Below, in pieces: positions 4,114 through 46,703 of a stretch of DNA of 64,000 nt (within the stretch, counting starts at the first letter, position 1; each line of letters begins with the position of its first letter). The DNA is taken from the sequence record MN709127.1. One strand, 5' to 3'. The DNA comes from Escherichia phage Ec_Makalu_002. The position numbers and the translations under genes were made by a program. The notes under the pieces were generated by a model. That model was not told the origin of the DNA and searched no databases. It saw only the letters and a program-made list of their open reading frames with translations.

Positions 4114-4608
4114 TTATTTTACCAGTTCTGCTAATTCTTTTTCTTTAGCTTCCAGTTCAGCCTTAAGCTGTTTAATCTCTTGTCGCTTCTTATTAGCGGC
4201 TTCCTGCTTACTATTTCGGATAATCTGATCTAGATACAACTCCCAATCCTGAATATTTTTGATAATATAACCGTCAACATTAATTGGTTGGATATTTAGT
4301 ACAGCTTCCAGTTTAGTCGCAAAAACTTTAATTGCTGGGGTGAAGTATTCATATTCGTTATCTTCAAACCAATAACCTAGACTTGCATTATCAATACGAA
4401 GACGAAGTTCAAGATCAAGGTCTTTATCTTCGGTGTATAGGTCTTTTACACCCCCCATCGAACCAACAACAACTTTAAAACGAATTTTATCAACACCACC
4501 AAACACATCAGTAAGGATACCAGCAATTGAACTATTAGCGCAAGATTGGTCGCTGAATGCGTCAAGGTTTTCTTTAGTTACAGTATACCAAACATCTTGT
4601 ACCCACAT
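4114..4608 (-). CDS. hypothetical protein with C-terminal coiled coil
   Basis: 164 aa; C-terminus KKRQEIKQLKAELEAKEKELAELVK. Confidence 0.5.
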   Translation of the reverse strand: MWVQDVWYTVTKENLDAFSDQSCANSSIAGILTDVFGGVDKIRFKVVVGSMGGVKDLYTEDKDLDLELRLRIDNASLGYWFEDNEYEYFTPAIKVFATKLEAVLNIQPINVDGYIIKNIQDWELYLDQIIRNSKQEAANKKRQEIKQLKAELEAKEKELAELVK

Positions 4609-4662
4609 AATATAATCCTCTCGTTGTTAAGTGGGAGTATTATAGCATACTCCCTTCGCATG

Positions 4663-5841
4663 TCAAGCACGAACTTTTTTCTTTACTGCTTTCACCTTCT
4701 GGCGAATTGCTCGAATCGCTTCGATCTCTTTTTCAGTCTCTTTAACAATTTCTTTGCGATTCTGAATATCTGTATCGAGATTATCATCAAGTTTAGGCAG
4801 CACGTCAATCAAGAACTTTTTAAAGTCTTTCAGGTTTCGGATAACCGCACCTTCACCCATTACCGCCACCCCTACACCATCCGGCAGATCACCAAACAGC
4901 TTAACCAGTTCAGATAGATGATCATGATCCTCTAGTGCTTCTTCCGGTTCAGATGGCAGTTCAACAAAGTTATAACGTTCATCATTGCTGATCAGATGAT
5001 ACCAGCAAAGCCCGAAAGATTTAGGAGTATATTCTACACCATCAACTTCAACCGCGTCAACACTTCCGAAAGGATCTACTTTAGTTACCTTAAATCCATG
5101 TTCCAGCTTTTGAACAATTTCAATAACATGGCTGGATACGGTTTCAGTGTTAAACCAATGAGGCAAATTATGCTGATTTGGCTTGTAGCGTTCGCCTACT
5201 TTAAATCGCTGACCTTCCGCTTGCATAGAATGAAATTGATGGTTGGTGATTTCCGCGAAGTATTCAAATTCGCCACCGTCAAACACACAAGCCCATTGAT
5301 CACAAAAACGATCTGCCTTAACGGTTTCACCTTTCGCGGTGATCATGGTAGCTGATCCGTGCAATTCTTCTTCAACCAAAAAGCCATATTCGACAAAATC
5401 AGCAAGTTTCATGGCTTCTTTGTGTTCTGGGTCATGCTCTCCCCAGAATCGCTTAAATTCTTGCAAACCTTCTGGGGTAAACGAATAACATTTACCTTTT
5501 TCAAAGTAAGTCGGCATTGCATCCTCTTTCTTGTTCATCGCTTCGTATGCCTCTTTTGAGATACGTTTAAAGTATTTGCGCTCATTGTGCATAATCATAG
5601 TAGACCAATAATAAACGATATCCTCAGCGGAATAAACTACATCTCCAGCTTCAATAGTAATAACATGACCGTGGTCATCTTTTTCTAATACTTTAAAGCC
5701 CTTTTCTACGATTTCAGCAACTCGAATATGACCACGGCGCGAAGCATCGGTCAGAATAATTGAATAGCGAGAAAAGTCTAGAAACTCATCTTTACCGCCT
5801 TCACGGAATGCATAGTAATGACCTTCAAAGAATTTAGCCAT
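4663..5841 (-). CDS. hypothetical protein, member of a tandem paralog family (two copies of the repeat domain)
   Basis: 392 aa; shares NGFKVL..VD..G and NERKYFKRI(S/T)K motifs with the ORFs at 5898-6482 and 6491-6811. Confidence 0.55.
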   Translation of the reverse strand: MAKFFEGHYYAFREGGKDEFLDFSRYSIILTDASRRGHIRVAEIVEKGFKVLEKDDHGHVITIEAGDVVYSAEDIVYYWSTMIMHNERKYFKRISKEAYEAMNKKEDAMPTYFEKGKCYSFTPEGLQEFKRFWGEHDPEHKEAMKLADFVEYGFLVEEELHGSATMITAKGETVKADRFCDQWACVFDGGEFEYFAEITNHQFHSMQAEGQRFKVGERYKPNQHNLPHWFNTETVSSHVIEIVQKLEHGFKVTKVDPFGSVDAVEVDGVEYTPKSFGLCWYHLISNDERYNFVELPSEPEEALEDHDHLSELVKLFGDLPDGVGVAVMGEGAVIRNLKDFKKFLIDVLPKLDDNLDTDIQNRKEIVKETEKEIEAIRAIRQKVKAVKKKVRA

Positions 5842-5897: not shown

Positions 5898-6482
5898 TCA
5901 AGCGTTAAATGACTTTTTAATCTCTTTCAGTTCTTCCACTTTCTCGGCGCTGAATTTAGCGTAGGTATCATGTCGAATAATTTCACTTTCAAGAAAGGTT
6001 TCCAGTCGAGATCTATTTTCAATAAGGAACTCTTTCAGGTCTTCCGCGTTCTTGACAAAGATTTTATTGTCGGTAATGTCATCTTCAATCGCAAAGGAGA
6101 TAGAGCGAACTTTACCAAACAAGTTAATCAGATCTTCCAGAGATTCTTCTTTCTTAACTGGCTTCATTTCTTCAAACTGCTTTTTAGTGATGCGTTTAAA
6201 GTATTTGCGCTCGTTTGCAGCAATCAGAACAGATGCACCTTCATACCCATGAGTTTCTACCAGATACACACGCCCCATCGCATCAACAGTGAGAACTTTA
6301 AAGCCGTTACAAAGCACGTCATACAAGAACTTATTATGTTGCGGACATCGTTTGATAAATTCTGCGGCTGTTTCTGCACTACGGAAAGTGTAATAACGAC
6401 CTCGTTCAAAAACAGCATCATTTGAAGACTTAGCCGGATACAATTTATACGTTTTCTGTACCATAATATAATCCTCTATCAT
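5898..6482 (-). CDS. hypothetical protein, paralog family member
   Basis: 194 aa; CNGFKVLTVDAMGRVY and ANERKYFKRITKKQFEEM shared with neighbours; likely true start is the second Met. Confidence 0.55.
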   Translation of the reverse strand: MIEDYIMVQKTYKLYPAKSSNDAVFERGRYYTFRSAETAAEFIKRCPQHNKFLYDVLCNGFKVLTVDAMGRVYLVETHGYEGASVLIAANERKYFKRITKKQFEEMKPVKKEESLEDLINLFGKVRSISFAIEDDITDNKIFVKNAEDLKEFLIENRSRLETFLESEIIRHDTYAKFSAEKVEELKEIKKSFNA

Positions 6483-6490
6483 TTCACTAA

Positions 6491-6811
6491 TTAAACAGCA
6501 CGGAACAGAATGCGCTCACACGGAAGCAGCATAAATTCCCAACGCGGGTCAAAGTCTTTAGCGGTGTATGTTTTCCCATCAACCGCTATTTCACTTACAT
6601 AACCAACAGGTGACACTTTAAGAACAGTAAACCCATTCTTGATGACTTCGTAGGTATCTTTCACCCCTTCGTATTCATCATCTAAGAAGTCTTTATGTGC
6701 TTGCTCAGATTTAAAAACATAGGCCACACCGGATTTAAACATCTTACGCATTGTTGATTCTCCTTCTTGATTAGATGGGAGTATTTTACTACTCCCATTT
6801 CTTATTGTCAA
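6491..6811 (-). CDS. hypothetical protein, paralog family member (true start probably MRKMF, near 6751)
   Basis: NGFTVLKVSPVGYV motif; the 5' extension in the ORF track overlaps a promoter palindrome. Confidence 0.5.
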   Translation of the reverse strand: MTIRNGSSKILPSNQEGESTMRKMFKSGVAYVFKSEQAHKDFLDDEYEGVKDTYEVIKNGFTVLKVSPVGYVSEIAVDGKTYTAKDFDPRWEFMLLPCERILFRAV

Positions 6812-10419: not shown

Positions 10420-10642
10420 AGTATGCTTTTTCTACATACTCGCCATTGATCCAAGCGGCAGTAACAATCAGGGTAGTCCAGTTAGATCCGCTCTCCACCG
10501 TAAAGGTTTTAATACCCAGCTTAACAGCCAAGTCACGAGCAAACTGATCGCAACCACGGCAGGAAGTGATATTGGAAGTTTTGATTTTGATGCCACCGCG
10601 AGTTTTAGAAATTTCTACTTTAGCGAAAGACAGGTTGCTCAT
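10364..10642 (-). CDS. hypothetical protein
   Basis: 92 aa; promoter/leader cassette immediately upstream. Confidence 0.45.
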   Translation of the reverse strand: MSNLSFAKVEISKTRGGIKIKTSNITSCRGCDQFARDLAVKLGIKTFTVESGSNWTTLIVTAAWINGEYVEKAYFDIFYDYEDKCFYALQDM

Positions 10643-10649
10643 TTTGATT

Positions 10650-10715
10650 CTCCTTAAGAAAGTGTGTTTCGTTTTGATGTGTGTAGTATAGGGGATCGGC
10701 GATCCCCTGTCAACA
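10650..10715 (-). promoter_or_regulatory. sigma70-like early promoter with GATC palindrome in spacer, plus conserved leader
   Basis: Reverse complement: TTGACA-ggggatcgccgatcccct-ATACTA ... catcaaaacgaaacacac ... GGAGAATCAAA-ATG. Confidence 0.55.
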
Positions 10716-10729
10716 ACTTTTTTATGATT

Positions 10730-11050
10730 TTAGTGAATTAACTCTACACCAAAATGAGGCACAGAGAACGCATTACGAAACACATATTCACCATGTTTAG
10801 GAATCGCCCCTAACCGCTCTATTTCGCTCGCCATCACGATAAACTGTTTATCTGGTGCATATGCCTTGTGTGCTTCAACAACGCACGGAAAACGCGTTTT
10901 AGAGAGTTCTGGATAGTTTTCTGAATCCAGAAGGACAATGAATACCCTGTTACATTGATTGTAGAATCCTGTTTTTGATTTCATCAAGTTTTCTTCTATG
11001 TTCAAGTCGTGCAATCTTCTTTTCATGATTTCGTTGGTTCTTGTCTTCAC
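10730..11050 (-). CDS. hypothetical protein, tandem paralog (true start probably MKSKTG)
   Basis: VFIVLLDSENYPE resembles MYLLLNDSGYTF of the upstream ORF. Confidence 0.4.
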   Translation of the reverse strand: MKTRTNEIMKRRLHDLNIEENLMKSKTGFYNQCNRVFIVLLDSENYPELSKTRFPCVVEAHKAYAPDKQFIVMASEIERLGAIPKHGEYVFRNAFSVPHFGVELIH

Positions 11051-11288
11051 AGTTTACCCACTCAACAAGATCTTTACCTAACTCAAAAGCCCATTCTCGG
11101 TCTTGCTTTACGTTTTGTAGGTATGGACTTTCCGACACTCGACGAAGTGATGTTGTCGTAACAAGAATGATCCCAGGAATGGTCGGATGCTCCTTACCAT
11201 ATACAATCGGACGGGAATCCCTTTCGACACCTTGTAAGAAGGTGTATCCTGAATCATTCAGCAACAAATACATTTTCGGTTCGTTCAT
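10950..11288 (-). CDS. hypothetical protein, tandem paralog
   Basis: 112 aa; overlaps the downstream paralog in a different frame. Confidence 0.4.
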   Translation of the reverse strand: MNEPKMYLLLNDSGYTFLQGVERDSRPIVYGKEHPTIPGIILVTTTSLRRVSESPYLQNVKQDREWAFELGKDLVEWVNCEDKNQRNHEKKIARLEHRRKLDEIKNRILQSM

Positions 11289-11554
11289 TACAGCTTCCTC
11301 AACCAGTTATTAAAGCGAGCAAACAATGATGCTTTTCGTGCTTCTTCTTCGGCTTTGCACGCACGCAAACCACTGAAACACCATTCATAATCATCACTGA
11401 AACATGATTCAACAGGAACACCCGCATTTCGTAGTTCTCTGGTCGTTATCATAAATCCTTGACATAATGGGCGACCTTCAACAATGATAGGAAGTTTAAC
11501 TTTTTTCATGAAAGTATACCCAGCACGGTCAATAATTTCAATTTTAATTTTCAT
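11288..11554 (-). CDS. hypothetical protein
   Basis: 88 aa ORF. Confidence 0.4.
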   Translation of the reverse strand: MKIKIEIIDRAGYTFMKKVKLPIIVEGRPLCQGFMITTRELRNAGVPVESCFSDDYEWCFSGLRACKAEEEARKASLFARFNNWLRKL

Positions 11555-11799
11555 TTTACGTTATCTCCATAGATCTTTCCATCAATATCAATTTCACCAG
11601 CGCGAACATCTAGGATAAGATGCGGTAGGTGTATGTAGTTTTCCCACCCTACGCGCTTCATTTCTTCTACGGTAACGTAAGCCCACCCGTTCGCTGTAAT
11701 AAAGTCTACTTCAACCTTGAGAGGAAAGCAAGACTTTTCTATGTCTTCGAATCCGACAATATGTTTTGTTGTTGAATATGGAATATATCCGGTGATCAT
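11551..11799 (-). CDS. hypothetical protein
   Basis: 82 aa ORF. Confidence 0.4.
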   Translation of the reverse strand: MITGYIPYSTTKHIVGFEDIEKSCFPLKVEVDFITANGWAYVTVEEMKRVGWENYIHLPHLILDVRAGEIDIDGKIYGDNVK

Positions 11800-12230
11800 T
11801 TTGTGATCTCCTTATACTCAACACACCATAAGCGGGTAGCCCATGATAAACGCTCATAACGCTGGCAGAAATCGGACCATAGATATTGTGCACCGTTCGG
11901 CATAGTTGAAATATGCGTTTTCTCTCCAACTTTCACGAAAGAAGTGTTCGATTTTGTGATCTCGACCGGAGTATATCCGAAAGCGGGTTCCAAGCCAACA
12001 TCTGAACTAAATGCCAATTTAACAGAATTTGTTTTTCTAACCGCTGTCCGGTTTCCTTCTGGGTATAGCACAGCAGGTTTAGCGCCTAAGCGGATAAACT
12101 CACTATTTTTAATAAACAGAATATCATGATAACCGTCATATTCCGACACTTCCATAGTAACAGGAAAATCGACATGTTCTAAACCTGGTAGATCTCGCAT
12201 ATCATAAAATGTAGCAATCAACTTTTTCAT
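11796..12230 (-). CDS. hypothetical protein, paralog of 12241-12486
   Basis: C-terminal VEITKSNTSFVKVGEKTHISTM...YLWSDFCQRYERLSWA matches the neighbouring 81 aa ORF. Confidence 0.5.
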   Translation of the reverse strand: MKKLIATFYDMRDLPGLEHVDFPVTMEVSEYDGYHDILFIKNSEFIRLGAKPAVLYPEGNRTAVRKTNSVKLAFSSDVGLEPAFGYTPVEITKSNTSFVKVGEKTHISTMPNGAQYLWSDFCQRYERLSWATRLWCVEYKEITK

Positions 12231-12240
12231 CTTGTATTCC

Positions 12241-12486
12241 TCACTCTTCTGTAATTACTTCATATTCAATTTTCCACACATCAATCGCCCAGCTTAAAAG
12301 CTCATACGATTTACAGAAAGATGACCAAATATACTGTTTTCCGTGCATCGTTGTTATGTGTGTATGCTCGCCAACTTCAACGAAAGACATATTTGACTTT
12401 GTGATAACTATAGGAATACGACCGAAAGGAGGCGGTATTACTGATTCGTTGGTCTTCATTCTATATTCCTCACTCTTCTGTTTCAT
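12241..12486 (-). CDS. hypothetical protein, short paralog of 11796-12230
   Basis: VITKSNMSFVEVGEHTHITTMHGKQYIWSSFCKSYELLSWA. Confidence 0.45.
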   Translation of the reverse strand: MKQKSEEYRMKTNESVIPPPFGRIPIVITKSNMSFVEVGEHTHITTMHGKQYIWSSFCKSYELLSWAIDVWKIEYEVITEE

Positions 12487-12706
12487 TTCTTTTATATGGT
12501 ACTATAACAGGATTAAGACAGCAAGCACCAATTACGTTATGAGCACCACAATTTAAGCATTTATAATCATGGAACTTGTTAAGGAATCGACCGAACTCAT
12601 AACCGACTAACGCCGCGTGCACTTGAGTCTCGATCTCATCCATATCAGCCAATGTTTTAACCTTCATAATATAATCCTCAAATGGTAGTTTTGCGAAGAT
12701 GGTCAT
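12470..12706 (-). CDS. hypothetical Cys-rich small protein
   Basis: 78 aa; CLNCGAHNVIGACC. Confidence 0.4.
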   Translation of the reverse strand: MTIFAKLPFEDYIMKVKTLADMDEIETQVHAALVGYEFGRFLNKFHDYKCLNCGAHNVIGACCLNPVIVPYKRNETEE

Positions 12707-12968
12707 TACATGCTTTTAATGCATCAGTCGCTGTGTCATAACGAGTATTATCATAGCACCAGTAACCATCTATCAACTGATAAATTAATCCATCCTTTTT
12801 AGCTTCGATGAAAGACAATTCTTTGAAAGTTTCTACTTTCTTTGCTGATAATCCACGATCACGGCGCTTATAGAGTTTAGCTAAAATGCGTTCAGCTTGT
12901 TCCTCTTTATCACCAGACAGATCCCAAATAATGTTGCGGATATGTTTGATTAATTGTTCAGTGGTCAT
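12678..12968 (-). CDS. hypothetical protein
   Basis: 96 aa ORF with promoter/leader cassette upstream (12960-13030). Confidence 0.4.
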   Translation of the reverse strand: MTTEQLIKHIRNIIWDLSGDKEEQAERILAKLYKRRDRGLSAKKVETFKELSFIEAKKDGLIYQLIDGYWCYDNTRYDTATDALKACNDHLRKTTI

Positions 12969-13069
12969 CTTTGATTCTCCTTAGTTGGTATGTGTGCATT
13001 ATAGCACTATGATTTTCATTGTCAACAACTAAAAACAAAAAAGGCTACCCCGAAGGATAGCCCATAAAA

Positions 13070-13849
13070 TTACACGCGAGCACCATAGATCGTGCCTACT
13101 TTATCCCAGCGAGGGGCATTGCCAGTAACAGCCTTACCAGCCGCCCCGCCATTATATTCCGATCCCTGTCCACGGATATTACATTTACCACCAGCACCAC
13201 CAGCATCACCACCGTTACCGCCATTATATACACCGTTGACAGACCCTTTACCTGGCGCGGAAATAGTACCAGCAGTAGCACCCCGTTCCATATTAGCAGA
13301 CCCGCCAGCAGCACCAAACGGACGACCACCGCCACCACCAAAGGTTAATTTCATTTGTGACATAGGAGACCAGTATCCGCCGCCACCGCCGCCACCGCCA
13401 CCGCAAATAGCGCCGTTATTTGTGATGCGTAAGCGTGTGCCTATACCGTTGTTAATTGCATTACCACCAGCACCACCAGCGGAGTTATTGCCACCATTAC
13501 CACCACGCCCCCAAACATGAACACCGGGGTTAATGATCAATGTTACATATTCGTTTGTTAACGAGCTAGGGAAGTCAAGACAAGGAACGCCAGTAGAATG
13601 GGAAACAATATTACCTGTGATAGTAATTACTACCGGAGTAGATCCTTGTGCTTTCATCCAGTTAATAAGAGTGTCTTTATTGTAAGAGTTACTAGCACCA
13701 ATGCTATAATGAATCTCTTTAGAGCGTCCGACCATCGCTGACATATACGCCGGACGGCCTAAGCGTACAGCTTGCATTGCGGCGCTCATCCACCGTTGAC
13801 CTGTTTCTGATACGGCAGATGAACCGACCCACCCAGAAGATATTGCCAT
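13070..13849 (-). CDS. glycine-rich protein (poly-Gly and GGxGG repeats in C-terminal two thirds)
   Basis: 259 aa; N-terminal ~110 aa of ordinary composition, then runs such as GGGGGGGGGYW and GGNGGDAGGAGG; terminator-like hairpin downstream (13030-13066). Confidence 0.55.
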   Translation of the reverse strand: MAISSGWVGSSAVSETGQRWMSAAMQAVRLGRPAYMSAMVGRSKEIHYSIGASNSYNKDTLINWMKAQGSTPVVITITGNIVSHSTGVPCLDFPSSLTNEYVTLIINPGVHVWGRGGNGGNNSAGGAGGNAINNGIGTRLRITNNGAICGGGGGGGGGYWSPMSQMKLTFGGGGGRPFGAAGGSANMERGATAGTISAPGKGSVNGVYNGGNGGDAGGAGGKCNIRGQGSEYNGGAAGKAVTGNAPRWDKVGTIYGARV

Positions 13850-13906: not shown

Positions 13907-14128
13907 TTAGATGATCTCAGCTTCACCATTCAGGAAGAAAGACCAAGTTTTGTTTGGGTAACGACGCGCCCATGATTCGGCGGTTTTAACACCAGCTTCG
14001 AACAATTGACGGCTGGTTACTTTAGCCATACCATCTTCGATGGCAACGTTTTCAATAATCATCGGGTACTTAGCGCCACGCATGAAACCGAAGCCAGCGG
14101 AAGATTTGATAATTTTAACAGTTGCCAT
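13907..14128 (-). CDS. hypothetical protein
   Basis: 73 aa; promoter/leader cassette upstream (14130-14210). Confidence 0.4.
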   Translation of the reverse strand: MATVKIIKSSAGFGFMRGAKYPMIIENVAIEDGMAKVTSRQLFEAGVKTAESWARRYPNKTWSFFLNGEAEII

Positions 14129-14217
14129 TTTTGATTCTCCTAGAAAGTGTATCTCGTTTCGATGGGTGTATTATGCAATAACACCGGATCGCTGTCAACA
14201 CTTTCTAAGAAAATTTT

Positions 14218-44049: not shown

Positions 44050-44904
44050 ATGGCACAAGTTCCAAAGAAAAGAATAGACACAGGTACTGTCGGCAATCCA
44101 TCGACTGGCGATATCTTATATGATGGCGGTAATAAAATTAACGATAACTTTGATTCAATATATGACGCATTTGCTGATCAGCGGTTTAAAGACGTAGACC
44201 ACGGCGTGGGAAGAATGGTTATTCATGCAACCGGATACTATCAGAAACATCCACGTCAAAGCTACGCTGGTTCCGCTGTTGAGATTGGGAGTCTACACGA
44301 TATCGATACAACTCAAGGCGCACTTATTGCTATTCTACCTAAAGCAAAGGTCGGCGAGGGTGTTGTATTCATAAATAGTAACGGTAGCCTTTCAACGACT
44401 ACACCGCTCAATATTCGAACTCAAGCAGGTGATTCTATTAGCGGGTATTCCGGTGATGCTACAATAACACAACCATTTTCAAAAGTCACTGTTTGGTGTA
44501 CTGCCGTTGAAGGTAGTCGCGTAACGTGGCGATTGGGTATCGAAAGTATGTTTACCGATACAACAACGCCATTGGATAAAACAGTTAACGTAACTGGAGT
44601 AGCAACAAACGTTGCTATTGCCGCAAAAACAGAATACGTTTCCATCAAATTATTAACTACCGCTAGCAATACATCCGGTTCAAAAATGCGTTCAAGTGAA
44701 ACGCTACTGATGATTGATTCTAAAGCCGGAAAAGTTTATGCGACGGAATATGCAGTTTTGCAGAAGACAGAAGATGAACTATACACGGTTCGTTATTTCA
44801 TCGGTTCCGGCGATAAAGTATATGCAGAGTATAAGGCTACTGGCGAAAATATTCGTTTAGCAGTTAAAGCCGTAGACACTATTAAAATCGGGGTTGCTAC
44901 ATGA
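44050..44904 (+). CDS. 9: baseplate wedge / long tail fiber socket protein gp9
   Basis: 284 aa (T4 288); synteny. Confidence 0.8.
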   Translation: MAQVPKKRIDTGTVGNPSTGDILYDGGNKINDNFDSIYDAFADQRFKDVDHGVGRMVIHATGYYQKHPRQSYAGSAVEIGSLHDIDTTQGALIAILPKAKVGEGVVFINSNGSLSTTTPLNIRTQAGDSISGYSGDATITQPFSKVTVWCTAVEGSRVTWRLGIESMFTDTTTPLDKTVNVTGVATNVAIAAKTEYVSIKLLTTASNTSGSKMRSSETLLMIDSKAGKVYATEYAVLQKTEDELYTVRYFIGSGDKVYAEYKATGENIRLAVKAVDTIKIGVAT

Positions 44905-46703
44905 AACAATTAATTAATATCGGTAACGTTGTTGATGACGGTACAGGTGATTATCTAAGAAAAGGTGGTCAAAAGATTAATGACAACTTTTCTGAACTTT
45001 ATACTAAGCTGGGGGATGGTGATATCCCTCATGCATCCGGCGCGTGGAAAACTCACACACAACCAGTATTAAAACCAAATTTTGGTGATGCATGGGCGAT
45101 TAATACAACGAACAACGCTGTTTCTGTTGAATTGCCTAAAGGAAGCGCGAGTGATTATAATAAAACAATTAAACTTCGTGATGTTTGGCGCTCATGGGCT
45201 GCACATAACGTAACGTTGAAGCCAGCACAAGGTGATACCATTAAGGGATCTCCAATCGACCGTGAGTTGTATAAAGATTTCATGGATGTTGAATTGGTTT
45301 ATTGTGCGCCTGGACGTTGGGAATATGTCGAAAATAAACGAGTAGATACTATCACCACTTCCGATTTAAGCACAGTTGCCAAAGAAGTTTATATTGCAAC
45401 CGAAGGACAAACAGACTTCCCTAATGTTTTTGGTTCCAATACTTACAATATTCGAAATGTTGAAGTGTATTATCGCGGTAACTTGCTTTATTATGGCAAG
45501 GATTTAACCGATGATTCTAACTATGGTTCAATCGGTGAAAACGGTGATATTGTTCCGCTGGACGGTAAAAGCATTAAATTACGCTTCCCTTGTTCGGCTG
45601 GTGATACCATTCAAATCATAACTTATATGGACGGTATCGCATCCTTCCGGTCAAGCTATATTACTCATACAATCCGCGTTTATGAAACAGGAATGACCAC
45701 TTTGGAATCCATCCCCGGTGAAGTTTGGGTTGGTGAACTAGCTAATAAGAAAGAATTTACTAATGCTGAATTAGGTGTAAGTAAGCGAGATCTTATTAAT
45801 CCAAATTCATTTGAATTGCTGATCAACGGCACACAAATGATTAAAGCGGGTGATGCGGATTTACCTTCCTTTATTTGTGAAGGCGCTGACGGTGAAACGG
45901 AAGAAACCTGCGTACTTGCTGGCGGTCAATGGGTGGAATCTGGGGAAGATTATTCATTGATGTTCGACGAAAACAGCGTGGTGACTGGTATTAAATTATC
46001 TAAAGCACTAGATAACCGAGATACTATCACAATTCGCTGGTTTAATAATGATATCGGAACATTAATGGAATGGGACGGTGTAGGCGGTATTAAAGAAAAA
46101 GCAGATAAAATCTATCTTAATAACGAAGATGAAGTTACTCTGACAAATCGAATTGAATATACCGATTTCCAAAATCCAAGCCAAGCAACTAAACGCCCAA
46201 TGGAAGATTATACAGGTCGTGTGATGGATATCTATTCCATATTCGATATTTTCTATCCTATAGGCACAATTTATGAAAATGCGCATAACCCAGCTAACCC
46301 AGCGACCTATATGGGATTTGGTACATGGGTACGTTATGCAGAAAAAGAATTTTTAGTTGGTTGGTCTTCTGACGCAAGCGATCAAAACTTCGCACTAAAC
46401 AACAACGATCTTGATACACATGGTCAACCTACACACACCGCAGGTGGTAACGGTGGTGATGTTGCATACCAGATCAAGAAAAATATGATTCCTGAATTAC
46501 AGAGCGACGTTCGAGTTCTTGTAAAAGATGATAACGGAAATATTATCATTGGTGGTTGTCAGGTAGACCCTGATGCAGTAGGTCCAGCGTTTACCAAATA
46601 TCGAGAAGATAATGTTAAAGTTAATCAGGGAAATACCGACCCATCAATGATTGGTATTCTTCCTCCATACAGAACTGTCTATCGTTGGCTAAGGGTAGGT
46701 TAA
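44901..46703 (+). CDS. 10: baseplate wedge protein gp10
   Basis: 600 aa (T4 602); synteny. Confidence 0.8.
   Translation: MKQLINIGNVVDDGTGDYLRKGGQKINDNFSELYTKLGDGDIPHASGAWKTHTQPVLKPNFGDAWAINTTNNAVSVELPKGSASDYNKTIKLRDVWRSWAAHNVTLKPAQGDTIKGSPIDRELYKDFMDVELVYCAPGRWEYVENKRVDTITTSDLSTVAKEVYIATEGQTDFPNVFGSNTYNIRNVEVYYRGNLLYYGKDLTDDSNYGSIGENGDIVPLDGKSIKLRFPCSAGDTIQIITYMDGIASFRSSYITHTIRVYETGMTTLESIPGEVWVGELANKKEFTNAELGVSKRDLINPNSFELLINGTQMIKAGDADLPSFICEGADGETEETCVLAGGQWVESGEDYSLMFDENSVVTGIKLSKALDNRDTITIRWFNNDIGTLMEWDGVGGIKEKADKIYLNNEDEVTLTNRIEYTDFQNPSQATKRPMEDYTGRVMDIYSIFDIFYPIGTIYENAHNPANPATYMGFGTWVRYAEKEFLVGWSSDASDQNFALNNNDLDTHGQPTHTAGGNGGDVAYQIKKNMIPELQSDVRVLVKDDNGNIIIGGCQVDPDAVGPAFTKYREDNVKVNQGNTDPSMIGILPPYRTVYRWLRVG

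What the first reader, a model, noticed from the sequence alone, without database searches (positions are those of the whole stretch)
11796..12486. Adjacent paralogs: 144 aa protein and 81 aa copy of its C-terminal domain
The C-terminal half of the ORF at 11796-12230 (VEITKSNTSFVKVGEKTHISTM...YLWSDFCQRYERLSWA...VEYKEITK) is duplicated as the stand-alone ORF at 12241-12486 (VITKSNMSFVEVGEHTHITTMHGKQYIWSSFCKSYELLSWA...IEYEVITEE). A domain duplicated as a separate gene is compatible with a decoy or modulator of the larger protein.
Basis: seen in the sequence. Interest (0 to 1): 0.4.

Follow-up and report, generated by a model that had tools for sequence, protein, structure and literature searches.

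The report
Diverged tandem copies of a small phage gene
Two neighbouring early genes of an RB49-like (T4-type) coliphage really do share a ~60-residue domain, but the short copy is an optional gene cassette found in a minority of related phages, not a demonstrated regulator of the long one, and its function is unknown.

Summary
The C-terminal 65 residues of the 144-aa ORF (11796-12230, minus strand) and the neighbouring short ORF are 58% identical (BLASTP E=6e-27). This is the strongest paralogue pair in the window. The short gene most likely starts at the second ATG (12459, 72 aa).

The window is a Krischvirus (RB49-like, T4-type) genome. The pair lies in a hyperplastic early region, downstream of a consensus sigma-70 promoter with an adjacent terminator.

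The shared domain is an uncharacterised family (phrog_10407). Everywhere else it is a stand-alone ~58-aa protein, found in lambdoid prophages, a 9NA-like Salmonella phage and a P2-like Aeromonas phage. The 144-aa fusion is seen only in Krischvirus.

Related phages show three states:
- long gene only, in 47 of 58 records, including RB49;
- short plus long, in 9 records and the window;
- one chimeric short gene, seen in phiS and G37-3.

The 229-bp short-gene cassette is bounded by a 27-nt direct repeat that spans the stop codon, ribosome-binding site and start codon.

Both copies keep every family-invariant residue. dN is 0.30 against saturated synonymous change, so both look functional.

The "decoy/modulator" reading has no support, because the long gene usually occurs without the short one. 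This is ordinary tandem-paralogue turnover of an ORFan, of modest interest.

The parts
11796..12230 (-). Long gene, 144 aa (phrog_16117). The N-terminal domain (about residues 1-79, 11994-12230) is seen only in Krischvirus. It is followed by a linker and the C-terminal phrog_10407 domain (residues 80-144, 11799-11993). The stop codon overlaps the ATG of the next gene (ATGA).
   Evidence: AF2: C-domain residues ~85-144 modelled with high confidence, N-domain pLDDT below 50
12241..12459 (-). Short paralogue, 72 aa from the second ATG (maximal ORF runs to 12486, 81 aa). It has a 13-residue disordered tail homologous to the long protein's linker, then a complete phrog_10407 domain.
   Evidence: AF2 pLDDT 84.9, five strands and one helix; all 14 family-invariant residues retained
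12226..12252 (-). Proximal copy of the 27-nt direct repeat (sense strand ACAGAAGAGTGAGGAATAcaagATGAA). It covers the last codons and stop of the short gene, the Shine-Dalgarno sequence and the start of the long gene.
12455..12481 (-). Distal copy of the 27-nt direct repeat (ACAGAAGAGTGAGGAATAtagaATGAA). It covers the last codons and stop of the upstream 65/78-aa gene, the Shine-Dalgarno sequence and the start of the short gene. The spacing to the proximal copy is 229 bp, the same size as the indel relative to RB49.
12422..12432 (-). Microhomology CCnnCTTTCGG (codons PP[PA]FG) in the short gene. It is one end of the 445-bp deletion that produced the chimeric single gene of phiS and G37-3.
11977..11987 (-). 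Matching microhomology in the long gene's linker (codons EPAFG). It is the other end of the 445-bp deletion, and the two sites are 11/11 identical in phage E26.
12998..13063 (-). PeSL-like cassette: a terminator stem-loop (13063-13042) followed by a 12/12 consensus sigma-70 promoter with an extended -10 (13025-12998). It is the probable early promoter of the transcription unit containing both paralogues.
   Evidence: terminator annotated at the same place in Makalu_001; PeSL definition from PMC2839356
10685..10713 (-). Next strong sigma-70-like promoter (11/12), marking the downstream limit of the unit.

Best explanation
The two genes are old, diverged tandem paralogues of a small mobile phage accessory gene (family phrog_10407, a ~58-aa mostly beta-strand protein with one helix). 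They are expressed from an early sigma-70 promoter in a hyperplastic region of a Krischvirus (RB49-like T4-type) genome. One copy is fused to an N-terminal domain seen only in Krischvirus, giving the 144-aa protein. The other is the family's normal stand-alone architecture plus a 13-residue remnant of the linker, giving 72 aa. The duplication happened within the Krischvirus lineage, and the short copy then evolved faster. Both copies stayed under purifying selection. The short gene now behaves as a 229-bp optional cassette. It is bounded by a 27-nt direct repeat formed by the stop/Shine-Dalgarno/start junction, and recombination across that repeat removes or inserts it precisely. This explains its patchy presence among close relatives. 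A second recombination, between the paralogous PP[PA]FG codons, collapses the pair into one chimeric short gene. In the genomes read in full, at least one intact C-domain copy is always kept, whereas the N-domain and the second copy are dispensable. Inferred, not shown: the domain is an early host-directed binding protein (host take-over or counter-defence type), and two diverged copies widen the range of targets rather than one regulating the other.
For: Paralogy: 58% identity, E=6e-27. Shared PHROG profiles. Window identity: 99.6% to Ec_Makalu_001, 94% to RB49. Lineage-internal duplication: NJ tree of 37 family members puts the short and long C-domains in one clade in 277/300 bootstraps, with the short on the longer branch (distance to prophage homologue P0033 is 0.68 against 0.50). 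Both copies share a PxFGxxP extension that other members lack. Age and selection: 65% nucleotide identity, third positions 47.5%, pS=0.75 (saturated), dN=0.30. Short-gene orthologue pairs that differ give dN/dS 0-0.37. All 14 family-invariant residues are kept. AF2 pLDDT is 84.9. Cassette: the 27-nt repeat is unique in the window (2 matches against 0.04 expected), spaced 229 bp, equal to 795 minus 566 bp between the window and RB49. State A junctions differ: RB49 carries the CAAG type and SSG23 the TATAGA type. Chimera: phiS and G37-3 encode MKTNESVIPP|AFGYTPVEITKSNTSF..., a 445-bp deletion at an 11-nt microhomology. Early expression: consensus promoter plus terminator at 12998-13063. In four lambdoid prophage contigs the family gene lies in the early-left operon between N/ral and cIII/kil/erf. 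The stand-alone architecture is universal outside Krischvirus. N-domain tblastn hits: 55 Krischvirus records and nothing else.
Against: No functional evidence exists for any family member: no Pfam, NCBIfam, PADLOC, PDB-sequence or PDB-fold match. The host-directed role rests on genomic position alone. The junction repeat is nearly identical (18/18 core, up to about 26 nt in ECD7, G2494 and FL20) while the gene bodies are saturated at synonymous sites. The repeat must therefore be constrained, homogenised, or the cassette was re-inserted recently, and I cannot tell which. The direction of the indel (loss in the RB49 type or gain in the window type) is not resolved. The long C-domain is about as close to a homologue outside Krischvirus, P0032 (0.44), as to the short copy (0.51), and the tree rests on 53 columns. 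Substitution counts among orthologues are tiny (0-4 per class). Only 13 loci were read base by base; the counts for the other records come from tblastn tables.
Confidence: 0.6

Rival explanations
1. Decoy or modulator: the short protein binds the same partner as the long protein's C-domain, or binds the long protein itself, and so tunes its activity.
For: The two share one fold and are adjacent and co-transcribed. The divergent short type was seen only in genomes that also have the long gene.
Against: The long gene occurs without the short in 47 of 58 related records, so it does not need a modulator. A short gene alone suffices in phiS and G37-3. Elsewhere the family is always a stand-alone protein with no long partner. 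No interaction test was possible.
Confidence: 0.1
2. Decaying relic: the short ORF is a non-functional leftover of a duplication on its way to being lost.
For: It is absent from about 80% of relatives. It sits on a faster-evolving branch. It carries +/-1 frameshifts in 011D4 and FL20 and a lost stop codon in PHB13.
Against: dN=0.30 against saturated dS since the split. All 14 family-invariant residues are kept. The ORF is intact with a good Shine-Dalgarno sequence in the window and 5 other phages read directly (6 of the 9 database records), which belong to different species. The fold prediction is confident. All three frameshifts observed (two in the short gene, one in PHB13's long gene) lie in A or T homopolymer runs and may be sequencing errors.
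Confidence: 0.12
3. Xenologue, not duplicate: the short gene was acquired separately from another phage or prophage carrying the stand-alone family, and inserted by recombination at the junction motif.
For: Synonymous divergence between the copies is saturated while orthologues within the genus differ by dS of 0.15 or less. The flanking repeats are near-identical, as expected for a recent insertion. The family is clearly mobile across four phage types.
Against: The short and long C-domains cluster together in 92% of bootstraps. They share the linker-derived extension PxFGxxP, which is absent from all stand-alone members elsewhere. Any donor would therefore have been a Krischvirus-like phage, which makes the gene an old paralogue anyway.
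Confidence: 0.15

Closest known systems
phrog_10407 (PHROGs family of unknown function; for example Salmonella phage SP069 gp48 and unnamed 58-66-aa proteins of lambdoid prophages)
   Same: Both window proteins match the 62-position profile nearly end to end (E=1.5e-25 and 1.5e-18). They keep the signature (V/I)xITKSNx(S/T)FVxxGxxTxI...G...WS....YExLSW....WxVEY.
   Different: Typical members start directly at MKV(R/K)ITKSN and are stand-alone. The window's long protein has an extra ~80-aa N-terminal domain, and the short one has a 13-residue N-terminal tail.
PeSL-mediated modular shuffling of ORFans in RB49/phi1 hyperplastic regions (Arbiol et al. 2010, PMC2839356)
   Same: Same phage group and same kind of region. 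An ORFan is present or absent between close relatives, with repeats at both ends that could excise or insert it precisely. A PeSL-like promoter and terminator cassette heads the transcription unit.
   Different: The repeats flanking this cassette are a 27-nt stop/Shine-Dalgarno/start junction, not promoter-plus-stem-loop PeSLs of about 100 bp. The nearest PeSL-like element is about 520 bp upstream.
Accessory genes of the lambdoid early-left (pL) operon (ral, cIII, kil, P22 gene 17, abc/gam)
   Same: In four prophage contigs the stand-alone homologue lies among these genes, between N/ral and cIII/kil/erf. It follows an XkdD/Y8K6-family (PF27050) gene with abutting stop and start codons. Like them it is small, early and non-essential.
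   Different: There is no sequence or fold similarity to any of them, and no function is known. This is a resemblance of position only.

Membership tests
phrog_10407 small-protein family | Significant full-length match to the family profile | tested here: met
   Long: E=1.5e-25 over profile positions 3-56 of 62. Short: E=1.5e-18 over positions 4-58 of 62.
phrog_10407 small-protein family | Retention of the residues invariant across 37 members (I, K, S, N, F, V, G, T, G, W, S, E, W, W) | tested here: met
   All 14 invariant columns include both window sequences.
phrog_10407 small-protein family | Stand-alone architecture of about 55-66 aa | tested here: not met
   This applies to the long protein only, which is 144 aa with an added N-domain. 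The exhaustive phmmer search found no other fusion. The short protein (72 aa) meets the feature apart from its 13-residue tail.
In-paralogues (duplication within the lineage) | The two copies are each other's closest relatives in a family tree | tested here: met
   NJ clade in 277/300 bootstraps on 53 columns, plus the shared linker extension. Resolution is limited by the short length.
PeSL-flanked mobile ORFan cassette (Arbiol et al. 2010) | The indel is bounded on both sides by a PeSL (sigma-70 promoter plus stem-loop) | tested here: not met
   The flanks are 27-nt stop/Shine-Dalgarno/start repeats. The only strong promoter plus terminator is at 12998-13063.
Truncated-paralogue decoy or dominant-negative regulator | The short form interacts physically with the long form or competes for its partner | not testable with these tools
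   No multimer prediction or experiment was available. The co-occurrence pattern (long alone in 47 of 58 records) argues against an obligate pairing.
Known anti-defence or defence protein families | Profile or fold match to a described family | tested here: not met
   PADLOC gave none, Pfam none and NCBIfam none. The best PDB Foldseek hit had E=0.67. The PDB profile search gave nothing better than E=1.1. BFVD returned only the protein's own family at E of 0.001 or below.

The most novel reading that the evidence does not exclude
The ~58-aa ITKSN...WS...YExLSW...WGVEY domain is a previously unrecognised, horizontally mobile, early-expressed host-takeover or counter-defence effector. It is shared by T4-type, lambdoid, 9NA-like and P2-like phages of enterobacteria and Aeromonas. 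On this reading, the duplicated, asymmetrically diverged copies in some Krischvirus genomes reflect diversifying adaptation to variant host targets.
Probability: 0.25. Interest if true: 0.55.

Novelty: new member of a known kind. Interest (0 to 1): 0.25.

Why it matters
In itself this is routine gene turnover in a T4-type hyperplastic region. Two things make it mildly useful.

First, related phages supply a ready-made domain dissection: long only, short plus long, and a chimeric short gene only. It shows that the 60-residue C-domain is the unit kept by selection, while the N-domain and the second copy are dispensable.

Second, the domain belongs to an unnamed family found in early accessory regions of several unrelated phage types. 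In lambdoid prophages it lies in the pL operon, next to ral, cIII and kil. That makes it a reasonable and cheap candidate for functional screening, for example for toxicity, counter-defence activity or host-partner pull-down.

It also shows that a stop/Shine-Dalgarno/start junction only 27 nt long can act as the recombination site for precise gain or loss of a gene. This complements the PeSL mechanism already described for these phages.

Tried and rejected
(1) Naming the domain. Pfam, NCBIfam and PADLOC gave no hits. A profile search of PDB sequences gave nothing below E=1.1. Foldseek of the confident 72-aa model against PDB gave a best E of 0.67, with only vague SH3-like or small beta-domain resemblances. 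Foldseek against BFVD found only the protein's own family at E of 0.001 or below, then weak matches to other uncharacterised small phage proteins.

(2) Relatives of the N-domain. The exhaustive phmmer search of 1.84 billion representatives found none outside the Krischvirus cluster. tblastn against phages found only 55 Krischvirus records. The AF2 model of the N-domain is unreliable, with pLDDT below 50, so no fold search was run on it.

(3) A "Rosetta-stone" idea: that the N-domain corresponds to the gene lying upstream of stand-alone homologues elsewhere. PF27050 (XkdD/Y8K6) does not hit the long protein. hhalign of the N-domain against the conserved upstream neighbour in the metagenomic contigs L010-L013 and L021 gave 0.7% probability. 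Rejected.

(4) A possible third copy suggested by a 32-nt repeat at 10617-10648, at the start of the 92-aa ORF (MSNLSFAKV). hhalign aligned only 8 columns at 1.6% probability, so this is chance.

(5) Literature. Arbiol et al. 2010 do not mention duplications or paralogues (no occurrence of either word, nor of ORF074-077). A search for Krischvirus early or anti-defence genes found nothing relevant.

(6) The frameshifted copies as evidence of pseudogenisation were downgraded, because all are +/-1 in homopolymer runs.

Full report
**What is there**

The region holds a run of small minus-strand ORFs. The 144-aa ORF lies at 11796-12230 and the 81-aa ORF at 12241-12486. BLASTP aligns residues 80-144 of the long protein with residues 17-80 of the short one: 38 of 65 identical (58%), one gap, E=6e-27.

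I ran an all-against-all BLASTP of the 305 window ORFs of at least 45 aa. This pair is by far the strongest paralogue pair (E=1.4e-24, against 5.7e-9 for the next).

The short gene probably starts at the second ATG (12459), giving 72 aa. That ATG follows GAGTGAGGAATATAGA. The first ATG lies inside the upstream gene and has no ribosome-binding site. The 99.6%-identical phage Ec_Makalu_001 is annotated with the second start.

**Where it is**

The window is a Krischvirus, an RB49-like T4-type member of the Straboviridae. It is 99.6% identical to Ec_Makalu_001 and about 94% identical to RB49 over 11000-13000.

The pair lies between gene 49/nrdC/dam and rI/tk, among unannotated small genes and next to the gp38 adhesin gene. 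A terminator stem-loop (13063-13042) is followed by a perfect sigma-70 promoter: TTGACA, 16 nt, TATAAT, with an extended -10 (13025-12998). Together they head the unit. The next strong promoter is at 10713-10685.

This is the "promoter-early stem-loop" (PeSL) arrangement that Arbiol et al. described for RB49/phi1 hyperplastic regions (PMC2839356). Early transcription is therefore inferred, not shown.

**What the shared domain is**

Pfam finds nothing. PHROGs assigns the long protein to phrog_16117. It assigns the shared domain of both proteins to phrog_10407, a 62-position family of unknown function.

A profile search recovered about 40 relatives. Apart from Krischvirus forms and a few fragments, they are 55-71-aa stand-alone proteins that begin at or within a few residues of MKV(R/K)ITKSN. 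Fourteen columns are invariant, including three tryptophans, and both window copies keep all of them.

An exhaustive phmmer search of 1.84 billion representatives with the 144-aa protein gave eight hits. Every C-domain hit is a 48-85-aa protein. The N-domain (about residues 1-80) has no relative outside the Krischvirus cluster. tblastn against phages agrees, finding 55 records, all Krischvirus.

AlphaFold2 models the 72-aa protein confidently (pLDDT 84.9). The model has a disordered 13-residue tail, then five strands and one helix. In the long protein the C-domain is modelled in the same way, but the N-domain is not reliable (pLDDT below 50).

Foldseek finds no solved structure (best E=0.67). 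In BFVD it finds only the protein's own family at E of 0.001 or below. PDB sequences, NCBIfam and PADLOC give nothing. The family is uncharacterised.

**Where else the family occurs**

- In Salmonella phage SP069 (Nonanavirus) it is a lone gene on the opposite strand inside the structural block.
- In Aeromonas phage Avpx2 (P2-like, Bielevirus) it lies among small genes beside the capsid gene, unannotated.
- In four lambdoid prophage contigs it lies in the early-left operon. It sits after N or ral and before cIII, kil, erf or rad52 and anti-RecBCD.
- In those four contigs it directly follows a PF27050 (XkdD/Y8K6) gene, with abutting stop and start codons (TGAATG or TAATG).
- 57 of 5,426 complete E. 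coli genomes carry that two-gene block at 80% coverage or more. PGAP calls the small gene hypothetical.
- In some large metagenomic contigs it lies in long arrays of small unidirectional genes.

It is therefore a mobile accessory gene, placed in early or moron-like positions.

**Population states in Krischvirus**

I extracted the locus from the window and 12 related phage records and read each one.

- *State A, long gene only (566 bp between anchors).* Seen in RB49 and SSG23. From the tblastn table, 47 of 58 records are in this state.
- *State B, short plus long (795 bp).* Seen in the window, Makalu_001, Makalu_003, E26, ECD7 and G2494. 011D4 and FL20 have a +/-1 frameshift in the short gene. 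PHB13 has lost the short gene's stop codon and has a frameshift in the long gene's N-domain. All three frameshifts lie in A or T homopolymer runs and may be sequencing errors.
- *State C, one 72/81-aa gene (350 bp).* Seen in phiS and G37-3. The product is MKTNESVIPP|AFGYTPVEITKSNTSF..., which is the short gene's head joined to the long gene's C-domain.

State-B phages belong to several species (gec3s, ecd7, RB49), while GEC-3S itself is in state A. The distribution is therefore patchy.

In all 13 loci read base by base, at least one C-domain copy is intact, whereas the N-domain and the second copy are each missing in some. For the remaining records, the tblastn tables show a C-domain match in all 58 Krischvirus records and an N-domain match in 55.

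**How the states interconvert**

On the sense strand, the upstream gene ends ...ACA GAA GAG TGA GGAATATAGA ATG AAG, where the short gene starts. The short gene ends ...ACA GAA GAG TGA GGAATACAAG ATG AAA, where the long gene starts.

This 27-nt direct repeat has an 18-nt perfect core. In ECD7, G2494 and FL20 it is about 26 nt perfect. It occurs only at these two places in the window, with 0.04 matches expected by chance. The spacing is 229 bp, exactly the A/B size difference.

Recombination within the repeat deletes or inserts the short gene precisely and leaves a working junction. State-A junctions come in both flavours: RB49 has CAAG and SSG23 has TATAGA. This fits more than one event or crossover point, but I did not survey all genomes.

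State C is a 445-bp deletion between the paralogous codons PP(P/A)FG, at 12422-12432 and 11977-11987. These are 11/11 identical in E26. State C therefore derives from a state-B genome.

From general knowledge, deletions between short direct repeats are classical in T4.

**History and selection**

Over the shared 61 codons the copies are 65% identical at the nucleotide level. Third positions are 47.5% identical. The proportion of synonymous differences is 0.75, which is saturated, and dN=0.30. Orthologues across the genus differ by dS of 0.15 or less. The split is therefore much older than the sampled genus, and both copies have been under purifying selection.

Orthologues of the short gene give dN/dS of 0-0.37, but from only 0-4 substitutions per class.

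A neighbour-joining tree of the 53 core columns puts the two Krischvirus copies together in 277 of 300 bootstraps. The short copy sits on the longer branch. The two also share the PxFGxxP extension, which all other members lack. I read this as duplication within the lineage followed by asymmetric divergence.

A tandem duplication with end points at the ACA codons would explain two things. One is the short gene's ...ITEE* ending. The other is the repeated junction. This step is inference. Why the junction stays nearly identical while the gene bodies are saturated is unresolved. It could be functional constraint, homogenisation or recent re-insertion.

**The N-domain**

The N-domain weakly matches phrog_13367 (E=0.012). 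So do four neighbouring small proteins:

| Protein | Coordinates | E-value against phrog_13367 |
|---|---|---|
| 82 aa | 11551-11799 | 0.035 |
| 84 aa | within 10730-11050 | 0.027 |
| 88 aa | 11288-11554 | 4e-4 |
| 73 aa | 13907-14128 | 3e-5 |

hhalign gives 33% probability (E=4.5e-4) for the N-domain against the 84-aa protein. The top-ranked pairs all fall within this same set of proteins.

This suggests, but does not prove, that the long protein is a fusion of two kinds of small gene that populate this region.

**Function and verdict**

Nothing ties the family to a biochemical activity. The best-supported reading is an early, dispensable, host-directed small binding protein. On this reading the second, diverged copy adds or alters specificity.

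The finding is real. It is an ordinary example of ORFan duplication and turnover in a T4-type hyperplastic region. Its added value is a natural domain dissection and a cross-phage candidate family for screening.

Noticed in passing
window 11288-11554 (-) and 13907-14128 (-); L002 (RB49) 4289-4546 and 4565-4762: A second paralogue family (phrog_7345; MKIxIIDxxGYxF...LPIIVEG...ELxxAGV) has two dispersed copies in the window (33% identical, E=4e-6; hhalign 93.5%). RB49, Makalu_003 and E26 carry an extra tandem copy that the window and Makalu_001 lack, which is another roughly 200-bp indel.
   Followed up: partly
window 10730-12230 (-) and 13907-14128 (-): The N-domain of the 144-aa protein and four neighbouring small proteins (82, 84, 88 and 73 aa) all weakly match the same profile, phrog_13367, over matching positions (E from 3e-5 to 0.035). 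hhalign ranks pairs within this set highest. This may be a local superfamily of small domains, but it is not proven.
   Followed up: partly
window 13070-13849 (-); compare L008 (phiS), L009 (G37-3), L015 (FL20), L017 (G2494): The gp38 tail-fibre adhesin gene (Pfam GP38 and Gp38_N, with glycine-rich repeats) sits inside this early hyperplastic region in the window, RB49, ECD7, 011D4 and PHB13. It is missing from this position in phiS, G37-3, FL20 and G2494, where the flanking genes (the 94- or 73-aa gene and the 96-aa gene) lie next to each other.
   Followed up: no
window 10643-10689, 12945-12983, 14105-14174: [quoted passage not shown] These look like PeSL-type regulatory cassettes.
   Followed up: partly
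window 20086-20346 (-) and 20328-20522 (-): Another adjacent, overlapping pair of small paralogous ORFs (38% identical over 63 residues, E=6e-9). Neither has a Pfam match.
   Followed up: no
window 4663-5841, 5898-6482, 6491-6811 (all -): Three consecutive ORFs (392, 194 and 106 aa) share repeated segments (27-40% identical, E from 1e-7 to 8e-5) and have no Pfam match. This may be an internally repetitive paralogue cluster.
   Followed up: no
L019 4737-5189, L020 4737-5189, L022 4711-5189, L023 2396-2874: In lambdoid prophages the stand-alone homologue always directly follows a PF27050 (XkdD/Y8K6 family) gene, with abutting stop and start codons (TGAATG or TAATG), between N/ral and cIII/kil. 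This conserved gene pair may be a functional unit. The Krischvirus locus has no detectable PF27050 gene.
   Followed up: partly
L018 (PHB13) 1501-2165; L014 (011D4) 1501-1680; L015 (FL20) 1501-1665: Three database genomes carry +/-1 changes in A or T homopolymer runs that break the short gene (011D4, FL20) or the long gene's N-domain (PHB13). PHB13 also has TGA changed to AGA at the short gene's stop codon. These could be real inactivations or sequencing errors.
   Followed up: partly
window 44050-44904 (+) and 44901-46703 (+): The baseplate genes gp9 and gp10 share the T4_gp9_10_N and T4_gp9_10_C domains (28% identical over 161 residues). This is a known ancient paralogy, noted only because it appeared in the window-wide paralogue scan.
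   Followed up: yes
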